Shown: one piece after another, positions 3,818-35,717 of the stretch
Layout of the letters: every line of letters begins with the position of its first letter
How positions within the stretch are numbered: the stretch's first letter is position 1
Assembly (NCBI GenBank): GCA_963850305.1
Contig: CAWKKR010000007.1
Span: 896,001-960,000, forward strand
DNA from: an uncultured delta proteobacterium
GTDB taxonomy: Bacteria; Myxococcota_A; Polyangia; Polyangiales; Polyangiaceae
Direction of reading: 5' to 3'
Length of the DNA: 64,000 nucleotides
The notes under the pieces: generated by a model
Seen by the model: the letters and a program-made list of their open reading frames with translations, nothing else
The model's database searches: none
Told to the model about the DNA's origin: nothing
Program-made: the position numbers and the translations under genes

Positions 3818-3890
<73 letters not shown>

Positions 3891-4107
3891 CGGCCCCAAA
3901 AGGGAAGAAAAACCGGGAGCCGGAACCGAGCGATCCTCGTTCCGGCCGCCTCATTTCATGTCCGGTTGGGAGCGCGAAATTCTTGAAAAACGAGTCGTGT
4001 GGCGGGGTGGGTGAGCACGGCACTTCCAGTCGGATCGAGCATCGAGTTGAATCGTAAGAACGGCGCACCCCGGGGGGATACCGGGTGCCAGGGATGCGAC
4101 GACAGTC

Positions 4108-5040
4108 ATGGCTAGCGATGCAGTCAACACCATCATCGATTCGTTGAAGGAACACGACGATCTGCCGCGAAAGCAGATCGCGGAGATCGTGGAAATTCTA
4201 GGTCCGGAGACGGCGCTCGGCCTTCTCCGGGAGACGCGCCGTGTTCAAGACGAGGGCGGCGTCGAGGTTCGCGATGGTTCACGGCGGCGCACGGATGGCG
4301 GCGTGTTCTTCAGCCTCGCCAAAACCAAGCTGCCAAAAGCGGATCGGAACCGGATCTTCCGCGTGCGGCCGCCGAAGCCAGAGACGGCGGACGCGCCGGC
4401 CTCGGAAAGCAAACCCGAGGCAGGGAACGGTGTACCAGTCATCGAGCGACGGCCGCGAGGTCCGGCGCCGCCGGCCGCGCGCGAGGTTCGGGAGCCACCA
4501 CCGGGAATCGGTCGTCGGCGCGTCGTGGAGGTGGAAGTCCTGCGCCACCACTCCCCGAAGGTTACCCCGGAATCCGAGGCCGCTGTTGCTCGCGTCCAAC
4601 CGGCAAAGCATGCCGAACCGACGGAACCGACGGAACCGACGCCCGCGCACGGGATGCGACCCCTCAGACGGATCGTCACCGTCGCGCCGACCGTTCGAGA
4701 CGAGCCGCCTGCGACTGCGGAAGCGGCGAAGGAGCGCTTACGCCACATCCTGCAAGCGCTGGGCGCGGCAGATAAACGCCGCATTCTTTCCGAGTTGCTT
4801 CGCGAAGCGGGCGGGGGGCTTCCCGACCTCGAAGCGAGACGGGTCGTCGAGGCGAAGCCGGCGCCGGAGCCGAAGCGAAAGCCCGGAGTCGACAATCAGA
4901 CACGCGAACAGGTACTCGCGGCGGTCACGGATGCGCTCGGCCTGTCGAGTGCAGATCTCGCTTCCGTGCTCTACGGTGACGACTCGCGCGCGGCCCGCAA
5001 CAAGGCGCGGGGCGTCCTTCAGCGGCTCAGGAGATCCTAG
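4108..5040 (+). CDS. Protein with N-terminal PHAX-type RNA-binding domain and Pro-rich linkers
   Basis: LGPETALGLLRETRRVQDEGGVEVRDGSRRRTDGGVFFSLAK resembles the PHAX RBD core GSRRRTxGGVF; short helical segments at the C-terminus. Confidence 0.72.
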   Translation: MASDAVNTIIDSLKEHDDLPRKQIAEIVEILGPETALGLLRETRRVQDEGGVEVRDGSRRRTDGGVFFSLAKTKLPKADRNRIFRVRPPKPETADAPASESKPEAGNGVPVIERRPRGPAPPAAREVREPPPGIGRRRVVEVEVLRHHSPKVTPESEAAVARVQPAKHAEPTEPTEPTPAHGMRPLRRIVTVAPTVRDEPPATAEAAKERLRHILQALGAADKRRILSELLREAGGGLPDLEARRVVEAKPAPEPKRKPGVDNQTREQVLAAVTDALGLSSADLASVLYGDDSRAARNKARGVLQRLRRS

Positions 5041-8024: not shown

Positions 8025-8930
8025 ATGAGCGACAAGGTCGGAGCGGACCCGGAAGAACTCGACTCCGGTTGGGAAGACGATGACGCGCCGAAAGCCGCGC
8101 CCGCTGCTCTGGCCTCGCTGCCTCCGGTCTCGGTGCCCGCAGTACCTGCTTCGCGCGCGGCGGCGTCCCCATCGATGAAGCCGTTGGCGCCGGCGAAGGC
8201 GAAAAGCATTTTCGACGTCGGGCCCAGCGCGCCGCGCGTCCCGCGTGAGGTGCCCCCAGCTCCGAAGGCGCCGGTCGTGGAGCCCCCGAAGCCCGCGGTG
8301 GTTGCGGCCGTGAAGGCATCGGTCGTGGAGCCCCCGAAGCCCGCGATTGCGCCAGCAACTCCTGCGGCTTCCCAGCCTACGGCGATCCGCCCGCAGGCGA
8401 TGGTCGCGCTCCAGGCTCTCGAGAACTCGCGACGCCCGAAGGTCCTGGACTCGCCCGAGCGCGTGCCCGCCGTCGCCGCGGCCACCCCGACTCGCGCTGA
8501 ACTGCCGCCGGAAAGGGCCGCCGCTCCGGCAAGACCGTCTCCCAAGAAGAAAGCGAAGCGCACCGCCGATCGGCGCGCGGATCGCGCAGGGCGCAAAGCC
8601 GACCGCATGGCGCGGAAGCGTGCAGCGCGGCAAGCTGCGGCCCGCAGCGCCAATCAAACTGCAAATCCCCCCAAGGGGAAGCGGCCCGCGGCGGCATCTG
8701 CGGAAAAGCCCGTCGCAGGACCGGAGGCCAAGGCCCGCAAAGCTCGGGCCCCCGCGTCGCAGCCCGAACGCGCGAAGCCCGTGCCGCGCCCCGCTCCGCG
8801 CCCAGGGTCTTCCTCCTCGCGGGAGCCCCGAACGAAAGGTGCCCGCGCCGCGATTGCGGTGTTGCTTGCCGTCGGGTTGATGCTCGGCTTCTGGCTGCTA
8901 TTTCGACTGCCCGGGCACGCGGCGCATTGA
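8025..8930 (+). CDS. Hypothetical Pro/Ala/Lys/Arg-rich protein with C-terminal membrane anchor
   Basis: MSDK..ELDSGW start, low-complexity body, C-terminal AAIAVLLAVGLMLGFWLLF. Confidence 0.6.
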   Translation: MSDKVGADPEELDSGWEDDDAPKAAPAALASLPPVSVPAVPASRAAASPSMKPLAPAKAKSIFDVGPSAPRVPREVPPAPKAPVVEPPKPAVVAAVKASVVEPPKPAIAPATPAASQPTAIRPQAMVALQALENSRRPKVLDSPERVPAVAAATPTRAELPPERAAAPARPSPKKKAKRTADRRADRAGRKADRMARKRAARQAAARSANQTANPPKGKRPAAASAEKPVAGPEAKARKARAPASQPERAKPVPRPAPRPGSSSSREPRTKGARAAIAVLLAVGLMLGFWLLFRLPGHAAH

Positions 8931-8996
8931 CCGGAAAGTGGCCCCGCGGCTCCCTCACAAGCCGCGGCGCCGGGCCGCCCGCACCCCTGGGTCGAA
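8931..8996 (-). ncRNA. Candidate sigma54-dependent small RNA (~65 nt)
   Basis: Lies just downstream of the sigma54 motif at 9005-9023 with no credible CDS; ends in hairpin CCGCGGCT/AGCCGCGG (8944-8967) followed by ACTTT. The hairpin could instead terminate the convergent 8025-8930 gene. Confidence 0.3.
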
Positions 8997-9004
8997 GCGA
9001 CGAC

Positions 9005-9023
9005 CAAGCAGGTTGCGTGCCAC
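9005..9023 (-). promoter_or_regulatory. sigma54 (-24/-12) promoter
   Basis: Minus strand GTGGCACG-CAACC-TGCTTG with exact GG-N10-GC spacing. Confidence 0.65.
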
Positions 9024-9160
9024 CGGGCTCGCGCCGGAGCGATCGGTGAATTCCGGAGAGAAACGCCGCGCGATGCCGCATGCGCTCGGGTCCCCCATCG
9101 CGTGATTTGCGGTTCCGTGAGGGACGGCCGTCGGCACAGGTGTGCCATTGAAATCACACT

Positions 9161-10027
9161 TCACCTTGCTGGCGGAAGGGGCAGGCGGCGCACGGGCGGG
9201 GGCGCGGGTGCAAAAGGTTCGTCCGATGCTGACGGAGCGTCGTCGCCAACGCGCCCTCGACGAGACGGGAACGCGACGCTGAACGTCGAGCCTTTTCCGG
9301 GCGTGGACTCGACGGAAATCGTGGCACCGAGCTCCACGGCGATCTCTCTGCATACGGAGAGCCCAAGTCCCGTCCCTTGCCACGCCGCCTTGATGGTGAA
9401 GAAGGGTTCGAACACGCGCTCGAGGTGCTCGCGGGCGATGCCGGGTCCAGAGTCCGAAATCTCCACGACGACCCCACGCGAGGCATCCACGCGCGTGACC
9501 ACGCGGATGAAGTGGTCATTCTCCGCATCACTCGCCACGGCCTGTGCGGCGTTGACGATCAGGTTCAGGAAAAGACGGCTCACTCGCGACTCGTTGCCCA
9601 CGATGGGAGGCACTGCATCGAAATCAGTGATGACCCGCGCGGAGTGATCGATCTCGGTTCTGGCGATCTTGAGGCACGAGATGAGCACGCTCTCCAGATC
9701 GACGTGAGATATCCCCGAGCGCCGAGCCGTGACGTCGAGGGCGAGATCCTGGAGTCGCTTCGCGCCTGCGACCGCCTCGCACACGCATCGCCGGAGCTCG
9801 GTGGCTCGTCCCTCCGATGGATCGCGCTCCGGATCGCTCAGCCGATGTTCGATGTGCTCGAGGTTCGACAGCAAATACGAGAGTGGCCCGAGCATCTCGC
9901 TGAGGGCGCCGGCAGCCAGTATGGCGAGCGAGGCGGTCTGCTCGGTGGCCCCCGCTCTCACCGCCGAACCCTCCACCGAAGATGCATTCGACGGCCCGTT
10001 CTCCGGACGCCCCACGCTCGTCGCCAC
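9161..10027 (-). CDS. Cytoplasmic histidine-kinase-like protein (HisKA + HATPase) lacking the phosphoacceptor His
   Basis: N box LFLNLIVNAAQA, G1 ISDSGPGI, F box FEPFFT, G2 GTGLGL, GKGSTF; H-box position reads LAAGALSEMLGPL. Start uncertain (GTG 10027 or 10015; ORF track starts at 10135). Confidence 0.8.
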   Translation of the reverse strand: MATSVGRPENGPSNASSVEGSAVRAGATEQTASLAILAAGALSEMLGPLSYLLSNLEHIEHRLSDPERDPSEGRATELRRCVCEAVAGAKRLQDLALDVTARRSGISHVDLESVLISCLKIARTEIDHSARVITDFDAVPPIVGNESRVSRLFLNLIVNAAQAVASDAENDHFIRVVTRVDASRGVVVEISDSGPGIAREHLERVFEPFFTIKAAWQGTGLGLSVCREIAVELGATISVESTPGKGSTFSVAFPSRRGRVGDDAPSASDEPFAPAPPPVRRLPLPPAR

Positions 10028-10039
10028 ATTCGCGTTCGG

Positions 10040-10055
10040 TGCAAGACACATGCCC
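10040..10055 (-). promoter_or_regulatory. sigma54 (-24/-12) promoter of the kinase-like gene
   Basis: Minus strand GGGCATG-TGTC-TTGCA, GG-N10-GC; predicted +1 near 10029, next to the in-frame GTG at 10027. Confidence 0.55.
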
Positions 10056-10203
10056 TTTGCGATCCTCCGACATTTCTTCCCGAGGACTGGGGGCGTGTCC
10101 TCTGGGGTGCACGCTGTCCTCGCAGCGCTGGCCACTCGAACGGACGGGTCGCACTGGCACCATCGCGCAGCACGGCGAGCGTTTTCTGCTCGGCAGGGCT
10201 GGG

Positions 10204-11730
10204 TCAGTCCCGCCGCTCGATGCCGAAGGCACGGATCAGGTTGTAGACGTGCGAACGCGCAAGATCGAGTCGTCGGGCCGTGGCGGCGATATTGAAGCCC
10301 GTGGCGTCGAGGGTGGCCCGGAGTAACTCCGCCTGGAACCGCCGCGTCTCCTCCTGGAATGTGCGGCAGGCGCCGTCTTTTTCGGAAGATGGGGCGCTCG
10401 AACCGAACAGGTGCGACGCTTCGACCTGGGGCACGTCTTCCGCAGCAGCGCGGATCGTCCCCGCTTCGACGACGTGCGCCAGCTCTCGCACGTTGCCGCG
10501 GAAGGGCGCAGCCCGCGCCGCACGCAAGGCGCCCAGCGACAGATCGACCCGCCGGAGTCCGTGCGTCCGTTGCGCGAGCTCACAGAAGTGCTTTGCGAGC
10601 AGATCGATGTCGTCCCGCCTCTCGGACAGGGACGGCAGCCGGATGGGCAACACCTGCAGGCGGTAAAAGAGATCGTCCCGGAACCGGCGTTGCTCGACCG
10701 CGGCTTTCAAGTCGACGTTCGTCGCAGCGATGAGACGGACATCTGCGGCGCGCGGGCGCGGGGCGCCGAGCGGGTAGTATTCTTTCGTCTGAAGGAGCTG
10801 CAGAAGCTTGGCCTGCGCGCTGATGGAGAGCTCCGCGATCTCGTCGAGAACGAGCGTGCCCCCCTCGGCTGCAGCGACCTTGCCCTCGATCCGGTGAGCC
10901 GCGGTCGAATGCGCACCGGGCAGCGCACCGAAGAGCTCGCTCTCCATCAGCGGCTCGGGGATCGTCGCGCAGTTCAGTTCGACCAGCGGCTTGCCACGCC
11001 GGGCGCTGTTCATGTGGATCACGCGCGCGAGGTGGCTCTTGCCGGTGCCCGTCTCGCCGGTCAGCAACACGCCGACGTCGAGCGGGGCCACGAGCGCGAC
11101 CTCGCGGAGCAGTCGCTCGATGGCCGCCCCCTGTCCGACGATCTCGTTCGCCTGGATTTTCTTCCGTACCTCGATCGTTGCATCGACCGGTCGCACGCCG
11201 TCGAACAGACGATGAACCAGCGGAGCGAGCTGCCTGCCAAAGATCGCCGCCCGCTCCAGATCTTCCTCCGAGAACGGTCCCGGGACCGTGCGACCCTGTA
11301 GATAGACGACCCCGGCTGGAGGGTCCGCTCCGATGGGCGCGCACAGTACGGCCTCGATGCGTGAGCGCCGCACGCTCCCCAGGTCGCGGAAACGGGGATC
11401 GAGGAGCGCCGATGGCGTCACGACGGCGCGTCCCGATGCAGTCGCCTCCGCGATGATCCCGCGCGAGACGGCCGCACGAATTACCCCGAGCTCTTCGTCG
11501 GAGCACCCTGCAGCGGTCCACCAGCCCGCGTCGGTTTCCGAGAAGACCTCGAGGTAGCCCTGCGAAGCCCCGGCGATCTCGAGAAGCAGCGCGAGGGCAC
11601 GGCGGAGAAACGGCTCGAGCTCCGTTTCGGCATTCAGGCCCAGGAGGCCCAGGTAAAGGTCTCTCTCCGATCTAACGCGGTCGGTAACGATCGCCGCCGA
11701 CGCCGCCATGGCCCGCATCATACCGGTCAT
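10204..11730 (-). CDS. GAF - sigma54-activator AAA+ - Fis HTH transcriptional regulator (atypical L1 loop)
   Basis: GAF (AVLCAPI..GVVYLQ..FSEEDL), Walker A GETGTGKS, ESELFGALPGAHSTA, Walker B LVLDEI, QAKLL, FRDDLFYRL, GNVREL, HTH NIAATARRLDLARSHVY. Start may be 11709-11781. Confidence 0.92.
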   Translation of the reverse strand: MTGMMRAMAASAAIVTDRVRSERDLYLGLLGLNAETELEPFLRRALALLLEIAGASQGYLEVFSETDAGWWTAAGCSDEELGVIRAAVSRGIIAEATASGRAVVTPSALLDPRFRDLGSVRRSRIEAVLCAPIGADPPAGVVYLQGRTVPGPFSEEDLERAAIFGRQLAPLVHRLFDGVRPVDATIEVRKKIQANEIVGQGAAIERLLREVALVAPLDVGVLLTGETGTGKSHLARVIHMNSARRGKPLVELNCATIPEPLMESELFGALPGAHSTAAHRIEGKVAAAEGGTLVLDEIAELSISAQAKLLQLLQTKEYYPLGAPRPRAADVRLIAATNVDLKAAVEQRRFRDDLFYRLQVLPIRLPSLSERRDDIDLLAKHFCELAQRTHGLRRVDLSLGALRAARAAPFRGNVRELAHVVEAGTIRAAAEDVPQVEASHLFGSSAPSSEKDGACRTFQEETRRFQAELLRATLDATGFNIAATARRLDLARSHVYNLIRAFGIERRD

Positions 11731-11783
11731 GCCCCCACCGCGTTCAATCGAGTGGACGATCCGGGCGCCGGAGAAGGGCACTC

Positions 11784-11803
11784 ATGTCTACTTTCTTGGA
11801 CAT
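11784..11803. promoter_or_regulatory. Palindromic candidate enhancer/operator ATGTC-N10-GACAT
   Basis: ATGTCTACTTTCTTGGACAT, between the regulator start and the divergent sigma54 motif, ~75 bp upstream of its predicted +1. Confidence 0.5.
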
Positions 11804-11841
11804 CGGGTGAGGTTTGCAGCCGAGAAACTCGAAACTGGCAC

Positions 11842-11860
11842 GTGGCACGTCGAGTGCTTG
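11842..11860 (+). promoter_or_regulatory. sigma54 (-24/-12) promoter divergent from the bEBP gene
   Basis: GTGGCACG-TCGAG-TGCTTG, GG-N10-GC; identical at 14 positions to the motif at 9005-9023. Confidence 0.65.
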
Positions 11861-11868
11861 TGATGGCA

Positions 11869-11982
11869 GCCGGAGATGGGGACCTGGCCTCCAAGAAAGA
11901 GGCCAGAAACGGGCCGGGGAACCTAGCCATGGCGGGGCCGCCGCCCAAGCGCAAGAACGCAGGGCGGCGGCGGTAGGTTGTT
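11869..11982 (+). ncRNA. Candidate sigma54-dependent small RNA (~110 nt) with two CAAGAA-loop hairpins
   Basis: HP1 CTGGCCTC-CAAGAAA-GAGGCCAG (11884-11906). HP2 10-bp stem GCCGCCGCCC/GGGCGGCGGC (11937-11971) capped by GCG-CAAGAA-CGC and extendable by AACCTA/TAGGTT. Only 15-16 codon ORFs follow the predicted +1. Confidence 0.42.
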
Positions 11983-11993
11983 GGGGTGTCGTC

Positions 11994-13979
11994 TCAGGGC
12001 GGGGCCGGGGGCGCTGAACTTCCGGTTGGCGCCGGGGCAGTCGGCGTGCCCGAGGCTGCGCCCGCCGGTGCGTGCTCGGCCGTCGCGCTCGGCGCAGGCG
12101 GCGGGGCGGCAGTTTCGGTCGGAGGCGCTGGCGCCGGCCCGGTGCTGGCGGTGGCGGAGGCGACCGCGGCCGGCCCGGTGACGGCTGTCGGACGGCTCGC
12201 GTGACTCGTGCCGGCATCCCGGTGCTCCGTCGCCGCCAAGACCACGGCGGCACTCGCAAGCGGGACGATCATGGCTCGTGCGGCCGGATCGAGCGCGGCG
12301 CGTCGGAGTTCTTCGAGGGGGAGCGTTTTTGGAACGGGCACCCGCGGCTGCACGCCGGGGATCGCATTCAATCGCACAACGACCACGGGCCGCGAGCCGT
12401 CGACTTTCACGGTCTCCGGGTAAAAGCCATCGCGCTTGATTTCGATCCGGACCGTCTCGCCGTCGCCGATCGCGAGGGAAACGGGCATCCCGCCGAGACT
12501 CTTGCCGTCGCGGTACACCTCCGCGTCGATGGGAGAAAAGACCAGCGCGACGGATCTCGTCGCGGGCGTCGCAGCGGATGAAGTGGGTGCCGGCGCCGTC
12601 GATGGAACCAGGACACTGTCGGATGCGGCCATGCTCGATCGATGCGAGGACGTGAGAAAGAGTCCCCCGGCGGACAGAACGGCCGCAATGGCGAGCACCC
12701 ACGGCCAGAGCGGCGCCGGTCGGACGACGTGCGCCGTGAGTTCCCGCCGCGCCGCGAGGATGAGGGACGCGTCTTGATCCCGCTCCGCGCGCGCCAGTAG
12801 ATCCGCGAGGGCGACCGGGGGATCGCCCCGCTCGAAGCGCTCCACGTCGGCGCAAAAGTCGTTCATCGATGCGTAGCGATCTTCCGGCTTCTTCTGGAGG
12901 CACTTGAGCACGATCGCATCGAGTGCATTGCCGACCGATTGCGGCGGCGCGTCCAGGCGCGCCAGCGGAACCGGTGCGGTGTACATGTGTTGCGTGAGCA
13001 GCCCCACCGGGTTCTCCGCGTCGAACGGCACCTTGCCCGACAGCATCTCGTAGAAGATGACTCCGAGAGAGTAGATGTCCGCGCGCGCGTCGACCTCTTC
13101 GCCGCTCGCTTGCTCGGGCGACATGTAATGAGGCGTTCCGAAGATGGTCCCGGCGCGAGTGATGCGGTTGGCCGCGCTCCCCATCTTGGCGATGCCGAAG
13201 TCGAGTAGCTTGACGAAGTCTTCGGTCCCGTCGCGCGTCGTCAGAAAGATGTTCTCCGGCTTCAGATCGCGATGAACGATCCCGGCCTTGTGGGCTGCGT
13301 TCATGCCCTCCGCGATTTGTTTCGCGATGGCCAGCGAGCGAGGCACGAGGACGAAACCGTCGTTCTTGATTCTCCGAGCGAGTGTTTGCCCTTCGAGATA
13401 TTCCATCACGAAGTACGTCGAACCATCCGGGAGCTCCCCGAAGTCGACCGTGTCGACGATGTGAGCGTTCCCGATTGCCGTCGCTGCGCGGGCTTCGTTC
13501 ACGAATCGCTCGACGACGTCTCCGTCCTCGGTCGGCAGGAGGATCTTGACGGCGAAGAGCTTGTCGATGACGTCGTGGCGCGCGCGATAAACGACGCCCA
13601 TGCCGCCACGTCCGAGCACGCCTTCGATGCGATAGCGCCCGTCGACGACGCATCCGACGTACGTGCTCGCTGGGCCGGCGCCTTCATCGCCCGAGTCCGC
13701 GGCGTCCGCGCGCACCAGCGGGACCTGCCTCAGCGAGCCGAGTCCGCGGCGAGTCACTGGCTCGGCATCCCCCATCGCCAGCAGAGTCGGGTTTTCGGCC
13801 ATCGAACGGTCCGCGTCCGCGCGGAGCTCGATGGCTGAGCGCGGTCCGTCTTCGATCGGCGTCGCTTGCGGGTGCGCCGCTTCCTGCCCACGGCGGGCGG
13901 CTTCTGGCCTCGGCCGATTCGTTCGCGGAAGCGGGCCGCGCTCGCCGTCACGTCGCGGTTTGTCGCCCGGGTCGCTCAT
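11994..13979 (-). CDS. Hanks-type Ser/Thr protein kinase, membrane-anchored, with PEGA-like and Pro/Ala-rich C-terminus
   Basis: LGRGGMGVVY, FAVKIL, HRDLKPEN, DFG, GTPHYMSPEQ, DIYSLG; TM LWPWVLAIAAVLSAGGLFL; FSPIDAEVY..LGGMP..RDGFYP. Confidence 0.95.
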   Translation of the reverse strand: MSDPGDKPRRDGERGPLPRTNRPRPEAARRGQEAAHPQATPIEDGPRSAIELRADADRSMAENPTLLAMGDAEPVTRRGLGSLRQVPLVRADAADSGDEGAGPASTYVGCVVDGRYRIEGVLGRGGMGVVYRARHDVIDKLFAVKILLPTEDGDVVERFVNEARAATAIGNAHIVDTVDFGELPDGSTYFVMEYLEGQTLARRIKNDGFVLVPRSLAIAKQIAEGMNAAHKAGIVHRDLKPENIFLTTRDGTEDFVKLLDFGIAKMGSAANRITRAGTIFGTPHYMSPEQASGEEVDARADIYSLGVIFYEMLSGKVPFDAENPVGLLTQHMYTAPVPLARLDAPPQSVGNALDAIVLKCLQKKPEDRYASMNDFCADVERFERGDPPVALADLLARAERDQDASLILAARRELTAHVVRPAPLWPWVLAIAAVLSAGGLFLTSSHRSSMAASDSVLVPSTAPAPTSSAATPATRSVALVFSPIDAEVYRDGKSLGGMPVSLAIGDGETVRIEIKRDGFYPETVKVDGSRPVVVVRLNAIPGVQPRVPVPKTLPLEELRRAALDPAARAMIVPLASAAVVLAATEHRDAGTSHASRPTAVTGPAAVASATASTGPAPAPPTETAAPPPAPSATAEHAPAGAASGTPTAPAPTGSSAPPAPP

Positions 13980-35513: not shown

Positions 35514-35643
35514 CCGACAGGTCCTCCGGGAATCCCTATCTACCCCAGTCGCGCACGCGCGGGCAAACGGAGCATTTCGACGATCCGCCCGGAATGCAAG
35601 CCTCCGCCTGTACGACACGCGCCAGGGACCGGAACAGTTACGG

Positions 35644-35717
35644 GGTGAGTGACGGGGATCGAACCCGCGACAACAGGAGCCACAATCCTGTGCTCTACCA
35701 ACTGAGCTACACCCACC
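35644..35717 (-). tRNA. tRNA-His (anticodon GTG) with encoded G-1; CCA not encoded (CCG)
   Basis: Minus strand G-GTGGGTG-TAGCTCAGTTGGTAGAGCA-CAGGA-TTGTGGC-TCCTG-TTGTC-GCGGG-TTCGATC-CCCGT-CACTCAC-C. Confidence 0.97.

What the first reader, a model, noticed from the sequence alone, without database searches (positions are those of the whole stretch)
8931..11990. Candidate sigma54 small-RNA cassette: twin outward-facing promoters bracket a pseudokinase and an atypical bEBP
Seen: the same motif GTGGCACG-N5-TGCTTG with correct GG-N10-GC spacing occurs at 9005-9023 (minus) and 11842-11860 (plus), both pointing away from the two enclosed genes. A third -24/-12 motif (10040-10055) precedes the kinase-like gene. 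My manual scan of the other intergenic regions found no further correctly spaced motif. Each outward promoter has an upstream palindrome and faces only 65-115 nt of hairpin-rich DNA before a convergent gene. Established: sigma54 needs a bEBP bound upstream, and sigma54-driven sRNAs next to bEBP genes are known (Qrr/LuxO in Vibrio, Pxr in Myxococcus). Inference: a self-contained module whose outputs are sRNAs; I do not recognise it as a described family.
Basis: partly seen in the sequence, partly recalled or inferred. Interest (0 to 1): 0.82.

Follow-up and report, generated by a model that had tools for sequence, protein, structure and literature searches.

The report
Two conserved sigma54-driven myxobacterial RNAs
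In one group of uncultured myxobacteria, a gene switch and a disabled signalling enzyme are flanked by two conserved, folded RNA genes of no known family, which probably act as the switch's regulatory outputs, though nobody has yet shown that they are made.

Summary
The window is from an uncultured Polyangiaceae genus. All three sigma54 motifs recur in the five complete orthologous loci of that genus, although synonymous sites are saturated. Each outward promoter faces a conserved non-coding element with no Rfam match. RNA-L (8996-8933, minus) is a 64-71 nt hairpin RNA. RNA-R (11869-11979, plus) has an invariant 18-mer, two hairpins with compensatory changes, and G-U pairs favouring the promoter's strand. 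In all 11 RNA-R copies an ATG-started ORF of unconserved sequence stops at that core.

Corrections: the promoters are not twins (different enhancer palindromes; the shared 19-mer is a consensus coincidence), and the module is not strictly self-contained (one homologue lacks the bEBP gene). The GAHSTA loop marks a Myxococcota-wide bEBP subfamily tied to correctly spaced sigma54 promoters, so it is probably functional. The kinase-like protein is a sensorless DHp-CA with a relaxed H-box.

It works like PxrK/PxrR/Pxr but is not Pxr. Expression and targets are not shown.

The parts
8933..8996 (-). RNA-L: predicted 64 nt sigma54 transcript; variable 5' hairpin, conserved G/C-rich linker, 12-pair 3' hairpin, short U tract
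   Evidence: Conserved in 7 full copies, 84 of 84 cells paired but no compensatory change; stays with the cassette while the convergent neighbour changes. Ends inferred.
9005..9023 (-). sigma54 -24/-12 promoter of RNA-L
   Evidence: present in window, L002-L006, L084, L099
9132..9147 (.). Palindrome GGCACA-N2-TGTGCC, likely enhancer/operator of the RNA-L promoter, 71-148 nt upstream
   Evidence: Single copy in G000; at the cassette in 5 of 5 genus genomes searched plus 7 further sites; distances. Binding factor unknown.
9161..10027 (-). Sensorless histidine-kinase-like protein (DHp + HATPase_c), H-box degenerate; start codon inferred just after the predicted start site
   Evidence: PF02518 only; closest to EspA/EspC kinase cores, below cut-off; His in 5 of 8 orthologues, Ser here; H+4 Asn replaced in 8 of 8
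10040..10055 (-). sigma54 -24/-12 promoter of the kinase-like gene
   Evidence: Conserved GGCAY...TTGC; weak matrix score
10095..10114 (.). UAS-like site (TGTCCA-N6-TGGACA type) upstream of the middle promoter
   Evidence: Conserved block in alignment A3; position
10204..11709 (-). bEBP, GAF-AAA+-Fis HTH, loop GAHSTA in place of GAFTGA; start at 11709 inferred (ORF caller gives 11781)
   Evidence: Pfam; Walker A/B, R-finger and sensor II motifs present; AAA+ fold matches FlrC/FleQ/LuxO at rmsd about 1.4 A; 74-78% identity to genus orthologues
11717..11722 (-). TATGAT, possible sigmaA-type -10 box 7 nt before the bEBP ATG (leaderless mRNA)
   Evidence: Invariant CATCAT block in alignment A1; role inferred
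11740..11803 (.). Two UAS-like palindromes (11740-11759, 11784-11803) upstream of the RNA-R promoter
   Evidence: the second is the top genome-wide score, but it was in the training set
11842..11860 (+). sigma54 -24/-12 promoter of RNA-R
   Evidence: Present in 10 of 11 RNA-R copies; L091 is chimeric upstream
11869..11979 (+). RNA-R: predicted 111 nt transcript; invariant GGGGAC, hairpin P1, invariant 18-mer (11909-11926), 6-pair stem AACCUA/UAGGUU, long hairpin P3
   Evidence: 11 copies aligned; 6 pairs changed on both sides vs 2.2 shuffled; 18-mer exact in 7 of 7 genus genomes. Ends inferred.
11876..11926 (+). 16-codon ORF ending at the TAG of the 18-mer (49-59 codons in the ten relatives; peptide not conserved)
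   Evidence: translation not shown
11994..13979 (-). Convergent Ser/Thr kinase, constant right neighbour
   Evidence: PF00069; adjacent in the genus loci that extend that far

Best explanation
A genus-specific sigma54 regulatory locus whose outputs are two structured RNAs and a non-phosphorylating kinase-like protein. Shown by sequence comparison: three conserved sigma54 promoters, two kinds of conserved enhancer-like palindrome, and two non-coding elements under strong purifying selection. Inferred: the GAF-AAA+-HTH protein, despite its GAHSTA loop, binds TGTCCA-N6-TGGACA sites and, on a signal read by its GAF domain, activates the RNA-R promoter and the kinase-like gene while damping its own promoter. 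RNA-L is fired from its own sigma54 promoter under a second factor that binds GGCACA-N2-TGTGCC. The RNAs act as regulators, most likely through their invariant G-rich single-stranded linkers (pairing with mRNAs or binding a protein), as Pxr does. RNA-R is made with a dispensable leader carrying a short ORF whose stop codon lies in the 6-pair stem, so translation may set its fold, stability or processing. The kinase-like protein probably modulates signalling by protein contact, not phosphotransfer.
For: Promoters conserved while four-fold sites of the bEBP gene are 36-47% identical and 1 of 114 is invariant over 7 loci; against that, an 18-mer is invariant in 11 of 11 RNA-R copies. RNA-R: 93% of cells paired, 6 pairs with change on both sides vs 2.2 +/- 1.1 shuffled (1 of 500) and 0-3 for slid controls; 23 G-U pairs on the promoter strand vs 7 on the other. 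RNA-L follows its promoter at a fixed short distance while the neighbouring gene changes. Outside the cassette, 10 of 50 GAHST-family loci have an outward, correctly spaced sigma54 motif vs 2, 0, 0, 1 for wrong spacings, and 8 of the 10 carry the same UAS vs 2 of the other 40. ORF ending at the core in 11 of 11 copies; shuffle probability 0.05-0.47 each, 0.07-0.16 with the observed length.
Against: No transcript data. RNA-L shows no compensatory change and was not called a terminator. In the window copy itself the hairpins fold slightly better on the minus strand, and z-scores do not pick a strand. Only 11 and 7 related sequences from one genus; covariation controls are inflated by relatedness. 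Changes at the Phe and Thr of GAFTGA mostly abolish activation in model bEBPs (PMC3162934, passages), and 40 of 50 family loci show no nearby sigma54 motif. UAS-like sites also lie beside canonical GAFTGA bEBPs in this genome, and L084 lacks the bEBP gene. No perfect complement of the linkers lies near a called ATG start in G000. rpoN is split over three frames in this assembly.
Confidence: 0.65

Rival explanations
1. The conserved hairpins are cis elements of mRNAs: RNA-L is the terminator/3' end of the bEBP and kinase-like transcripts, and RNA-R is a 3' UTR structure of the convergent Ser/Thr kinase mRNA; the outward promoters only give antisense or interfering transcription.
For: RNA-L ends in hairpin plus U tract on the strand of the two genes. 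RNA-R always abuts the kinase stop, and antisense z-scores are as good or better in 6 of 11 copies. Kinase orthology outside the genus could not be resolved, so the two could not be separated.
Against: Terminators rarely keep unpaired sequence invariant at saturated divergence. G-U asymmetry 23 vs 7 favours the promoter strand. Each element has its own conserved promoter and enhancer-like site.
Confidence: 0.12
2. The right transcript is primarily an mRNA for a small, fast-evolving peptide; the conserved structure is its 3' stability element, and only RNA-L is an sRNA.
For: An ATG 49-77 nt after the predicted start opens a 49-59 codon ORF in 10 of 10 long copies, always ending 0-10 nt after the 18-mer.
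Against: The 18-mer is read in three different frames; substitutions show no third-position bias in 7 of 7 pairs; the window copy has lost two thirds of the ORF; ribosome-binding sites are not evident.
Confidence: 0.12
3. The RNAs are real, but the GAHSTA protein is not a sigma54 activator: it represses or occupies the enhancers, and canonical bEBPs encoded elsewhere fire all three promoters.
For: GAFTGA Phe/Thr changes usually abolish activation (PMC3162934 passages; PMC3467059 passages). Similar UAS sites flank canonical bEBPs. L084 has no local bEBP.
Against: His at the Phe position is kept in 44 of 50 family loci across the phylum and the family is linked to correctly spaced promoters plus UAS; ATPase motifs are intact.
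Confidence: 0.08
4. Chance motifs, or the inverted ends of a mobile element.
For: The two 19-mers form an inverted pair; GC-rich DNA gives hairpins freely (RNA-L z = -0.47).
Against: Fixed chromosomal context within the genus; the two ends differ in relatives; no transposase or integrase domain in the enclosed genes; conservation far above neutral sites.
Confidence: 0.03

Closest known systems
PxrK/PxrR/Pxr of Myxococcus xanthus (Rfam RF01812)
   Same: Kinase-type gene, sigma54 bEBP gene and an sRNA with its own sigma54 promoter downstream; lineage-restricted RNA; longer precursor forms (PMC5568312 abstract and background; PMC10217877 and PMC5684412 passages).
   Different: No RF01812 match. 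Two RNAs on opposite sides. Activator has GAF and no receiver domain, loop is GAHSTA. Kinase lacks sensor and a constant His. Host is Polyangiaceae; Pxr is reported from Cystobacterineae.
LuxO/Qrr (Vibrio) and GlrK/GlrR/GlmY (enterobacteria)
   Same: sigma54- and bEBP-dependent sRNA genes (search listing with abstract starts only; the rest recalled).
   Different: Phosphorelay-controlled activators with GAFTGA; no Rfam match of either RNA here.
NifL-NifA (Azotobacter vinelandii)
   Same: A histidine-kinase-like DH-GHKL protein without kinase activity beside a GAF-AAA+-HTH bEBP (PMC12998190, abstract and Introduction).
   Different: No PAS domains here; the kinase-like gene lies downstream under its own sigma54 promoter; binding is untested; L084 keeps the kinase-like gene without the bEBP.
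Group III GAF bEBPs NorR and PexR
   Same: GAF-AAA+-HTH build; NorR is the best NCBIfam hit, below cut-off; PexR acts as repressor and activator from UAS overlapping a sigmaA promoter (PMC12754779 passages).
   Different: GAHSTA loop; metal ligands in GAF were not examined; outputs are RNAs.

Membership tests
Pxr sRNA | Match to RF01812 | tested here: not met
   No hit at E<=5 in 8700-12200; 0 of 5 genus genomes over cut-off
Pxr sRNA | sigma54 promoter downstream of a bEBP gene | tested here: met
   RNA-L promoter lies downstream of bEBP and kinase-like gene
Pxr sRNA | Activator is a response regulator with a cognate histidine kinase | tested here: not met
   GAF, no receiver domain; H-box degenerate
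Pxr sRNA | Processing into long and short forms; control of development | not testable with these tools
   Needs Northern blots and genetics
Canonical sigma54 bEBP | PF00158 AAA+ domain with Walker A/B, R-finger, sensor II and Fis HTH | tested here: met
Canonical sigma54 bEBP | GAFTGA loop | tested here: not met
   GAHSTA; His variant in 44 of 50 family loci
Canonical sigma54 bEBP | Acts on -24/-12 promoters from upstream enhancers | tested here: inconclusive
   Genomic association 10 of 50 vs 0-2 controls; no biochemistry
Sensor histidine kinase (HisKA-HATPase_c) | Phospho-acceptor His in an intact H-box | tested here: not met
   His in 5 of 8, never with Glu at +1 and Asn at +4 together
Sensor histidine kinase (HisKA-HATPase_c) | ATP-binding N, G1, F, G2 boxes | tested here: met
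   PF02518 E 7e-24; alignment
NifL-NifA anti-activator pair | PAS sensor domains on the kinase-like protein | tested here: not met
   Only HATPase_c found; about 285 aa
NifL-NifA anti-activator pair | Direct complex that blocks the activator | not tested
Any Rfam 15 family | Covariance-model match over either RNA | tested here: not met

The most novel reading that the evidence does not exclude
RNA-R is a translation-gated regulatory RNA: a sigma54 transcript whose short ORF is kept for its frame and stop position, not its peptide, so that a ribosome terminating inside the AACCUA/UAGGUU stem refolds or releases a structured RNA with an invariant G-rich core. It is controlled by a bEBP subfamily that activates sigma54 through a His-Ser-Thr loop instead of Phe-Thr-Gly, held in check by a sensorless NifL-like pseudokinase in a feedback loop, with a second sRNA wired to a different activator.
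Probability: 0.25. Interest if true: 0.85.

Novelty: new variant of a known kind. Interest (0 to 1): 0.62.

Why it matters
The myxobacterial review consulted names Pxr as the characterised regulatory RNA and places its origin in Cystobacterineae (PMC8538405, passages). Two unrelated, lineage-restricted sigma54 RNAs in Polyangiaceae would show the same bEBP-to-sRNA wiring arising again. The GAHSTA subfamily, found in 34 of 301 Myxococcota genomes sampled, would be filtered out as non-functional by the usual GAFTGA rule, yet it is tied to correctly spaced sigma54 promoters, which is directly testable in vitro. An ORF conserved in position but not in sequence that stops inside a conserved RNA stem is an unusual design. 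Limits: one uncultured genus, no expression data, no targets.

Tried and rejected
Expression: no RNA holder listed, so no reads were laid. Pairing of RNA-L with RNA-R: binding energy within about 2 SD of shuffles in 7 of 7 pairs; rejected. Targets: perfect complements of the linkers (5, 37 and 1 sites, plus the locus itself for the 18-mer) were not near a called ATG start; a crude test. Wider homologues: models R1 and R2 gave only one borderline hit each (E 0.046, 0.016) among 147 non-genus family genomes, with 21 or 30 candidates scored per genome, and none in 29 loci of other GAHST bEBPs or 20 kinase loci of other genera. 37 of 43 metagenome matches and both viral matches of the 17-mer were chance and were dropped. 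Divergent 6S RNA: weak 6S candidates lie elsewhere in 2 of 4 genomes; rejected. CsrA sponge: CsrA found in 3 of 4 genomes, not G000, and no constant ANGGA loops; not pursued. G-quadruplex from four invariant G tracts: cannot be told from general invariance; untested. Mobile-element ends: rejected. Earlier scan findings: nothing relevant. Literature searches found no description of this locus; subscription papers are mostly not covered, PMC2764435 was not held, and no supplements were read (Additional file 3 of PMC3162934 lists defective GAFTGA variants and may bear on the loop).
Full report
Observation. The two 19-base motifs lie where stated and are the only copies of that exact pattern in the genome. 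A looser sigma54 pattern occurs 25 times at the correct spacing against 2-20 times at seven wrong spacings, so a single motif is weak evidence. The middle motif scores poorly alone (rank 2201). The enclosed genes encode a GAF-AAA+-HTH bEBP and a protein with only a HATPase_c hit. Named relatives at 75-78% identity are uncultured Polyangiaceae. rpoN is present but split over three frames, as is a paralogue of the bEBP; assembly indels are the likely cause (inference).

Conservation. The bEBP has orthologues at 74-78% in five same-genus genomes; a sixth has it broken over a contig end. All three promoters recur in the five. The context relA-PHAX-cysH-[cassette]-Ser/Thr kinase-dodecin is constant where contigs reach, but the gene facing the left promoter changes between species (dodecin is my label for that ORF, from recall). 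Four-fold degenerate sites of the bEBP gene are 36-47% identical to the window and 1 of 114 is invariant over seven loci, so shared non-coding sequence reflects selection.

RNA-L. After the left promoter comes a 64-71 nt unit: variable 5' hairpin, conserved G/C-rich linker, 12-pair hairpin and a short U tract. All 84 cells pair; two one-sided changes are C-G to U-G, valid only on the promoter strand; none is compensatory. The window copy folds no better than shuffles.

RNA-R. An 18-mer at 11909-11926 is exact in 7 of 7 genus genomes and has one-mismatch hits in 3 of 376 others, below the 12 reversed-pattern control hits. A metagenome scan gave 43 matches, of which 6 are homologues (two near-copies of genome loci) and 37 chance. 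Eleven distinct copies share GGGGAC, hairpin P1, the 18-mer, a 6-pair stem and hairpin P3. Of 25 hand-named pairs, 6 change on both sides against 2.2 shuffled and 0-3 slid; one of the six is mostly mismatched, and relatedness inflates this control. G-U pairs number 23 on the promoter strand and 7 on the other, though the window copy alone gives 0 and 2. Neither RNA matches Rfam or Pxr, and models of both found nothing convincing outside the genus.

The ORF. The predicted right transcript is 111 nt here and 267-317 nt in the nine relatives with a promoter. In all ten long copies an ATG 49-77 nt in opens a 49-59 codon ORF that stops 0, 8 or 10 nt after the 18-mer, in three frames; the window has a 16-codon version. 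Shuffling the leader gives such an ORF with probability 0.25-0.47, or 0.07-0.16 at that length, and 0.05 for the window. The copies are related, so these cannot simply be multiplied. Substitutions show no codon-position bias. I put translation with a regulatory role at about 45%.

One weak hint of transcription. L091 is a chimeric contig joining RNA-R to AT-rich sequence that includes rRNA; the junction is 205 nt before the 18-mer, close to the predicted start (183-230 nt in the others). The library type is unknown, and the kinase mRNA from the other strand could give the same picture.

Enhancers. The right and middle promoters share TGTCCA-N6-TGGACA-like sites. The left promoter has a different palindrome 71-148 nt upstream, single in G000, which recurs at 7 further sites in five genus genomes against 1 control site; 4 of the 7 have a sigma54-like motif within about 60 nt and 3 are orthologous DUF2330 genes. 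The promoters are therefore not twins. L084 keeps RNA-L, the kinase-like gene, a UAS pair and RNA-R without the bEBP gene, and UAS-like sites flank two canonical bEBPs in G000, so input in trans is likely.

The bEBP. ATPase motifs and fold are normal. The family occurs in 34 of 301 phylum genomes. In 50 distinct non-cassette loci, His replaces Phe in 44; 10 have an outward, correctly spaced sigma54 motif against 2, 0, 0 and 1 for wrong spacings; 8 of these 10 carry the UAS against 2 of the other 40 (the pattern was widened after seeing L007, and controls used the same pattern). Most of those promoters precede protein genes. Published mutagenesis says such loop changes usually kill activation (PMC3162934, PMC3467059; passages), so activity is probable, not shown.

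The kinase-like protein. It is a genus-specific form of about 285 aa; hits in other genera lie in open frames of 519-1119 aa. His is present in 5 of 8 orthologues, Ser or Arg in 3, and the H+4 Asn is lost in all, while the ATP-binding boxes and a C-terminal PPVRxLP motif are kept. A NifL-like anti-activator role (PMC12998190, abstract and Introduction) is an analogy, about 30%; binding could not be tested.

Verdict. A real, conserved locus with two RNA elements of no described family, wired like PxrK/PxrR/Pxr (PMC5568312 abstract and background; PMC5684412, PMC10217877 passages) but not a member of it. Eight literature searches found no description; coverage excludes most subscription papers. 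New variant of a known kind; interest 0.62.

Noticed in passing
G000 genome-wide: Several of the 25 consensus sigma54 motifs are followed by an ATG about 12-20 nt after the -12 box, suggesting leaderless or very short-leader sigma54 transcripts.
   Followed up: no
G000:C9:20315-21786 (L123-L125) and G000:C2:79436-82572 (L034): rpoN is split over three frames and a GAHSTA paralogue is in two pieces 1.6 kb apart; assembly errors or real breaks.
   Followed up: no
L153, L154, L157 (upstream of DUF2330 genes), L155, L156, L158, L162: The GGCACA-N2-TGTGCC palindrome recurs near sigma54-like motifs before genes that look secreted or membrane-bound; a possible regulon of an unknown factor.
   Followed up: partly
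L007, L016, L017, L178, L192: GAHST-family bEBPs in other genera face sigma54 promoters that precede proteins with LuxR-like HTH tails (read by eye, not scanned).
   Followed up: partly
L167, L185, L186: Other GAHST-family loci have outward sigma54 motifs with no clear long ORF in the next 200 nt; L167 and L186 have motifs on both sides; possible unrelated RNA outputs.
   Followed up: no
L037, L038 and L035: The second GAHSTA paralogue of the genus often lies next to or near a Ser/Thr kinase gene and shows no sigma54 motif nearby.
   Followed up: no
window 4108-5040 (+): A protein with a PHAX RNA-binding domain (PF10258, E 6e-19), conserved about 4 kb from the cassette in L032 and L033.
   Followed up: no
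window 11836-11849: The right promoter has a tandem TGGCACG-TGGCACG duplication not seen in relatives; the long leader of relatives is also missing here.
   Followed up: partly
window 3819-3891 (+) and 35642-35716 (-): tRNA-Gly(GCC) and tRNA-His(GTG).
   Followed up: no
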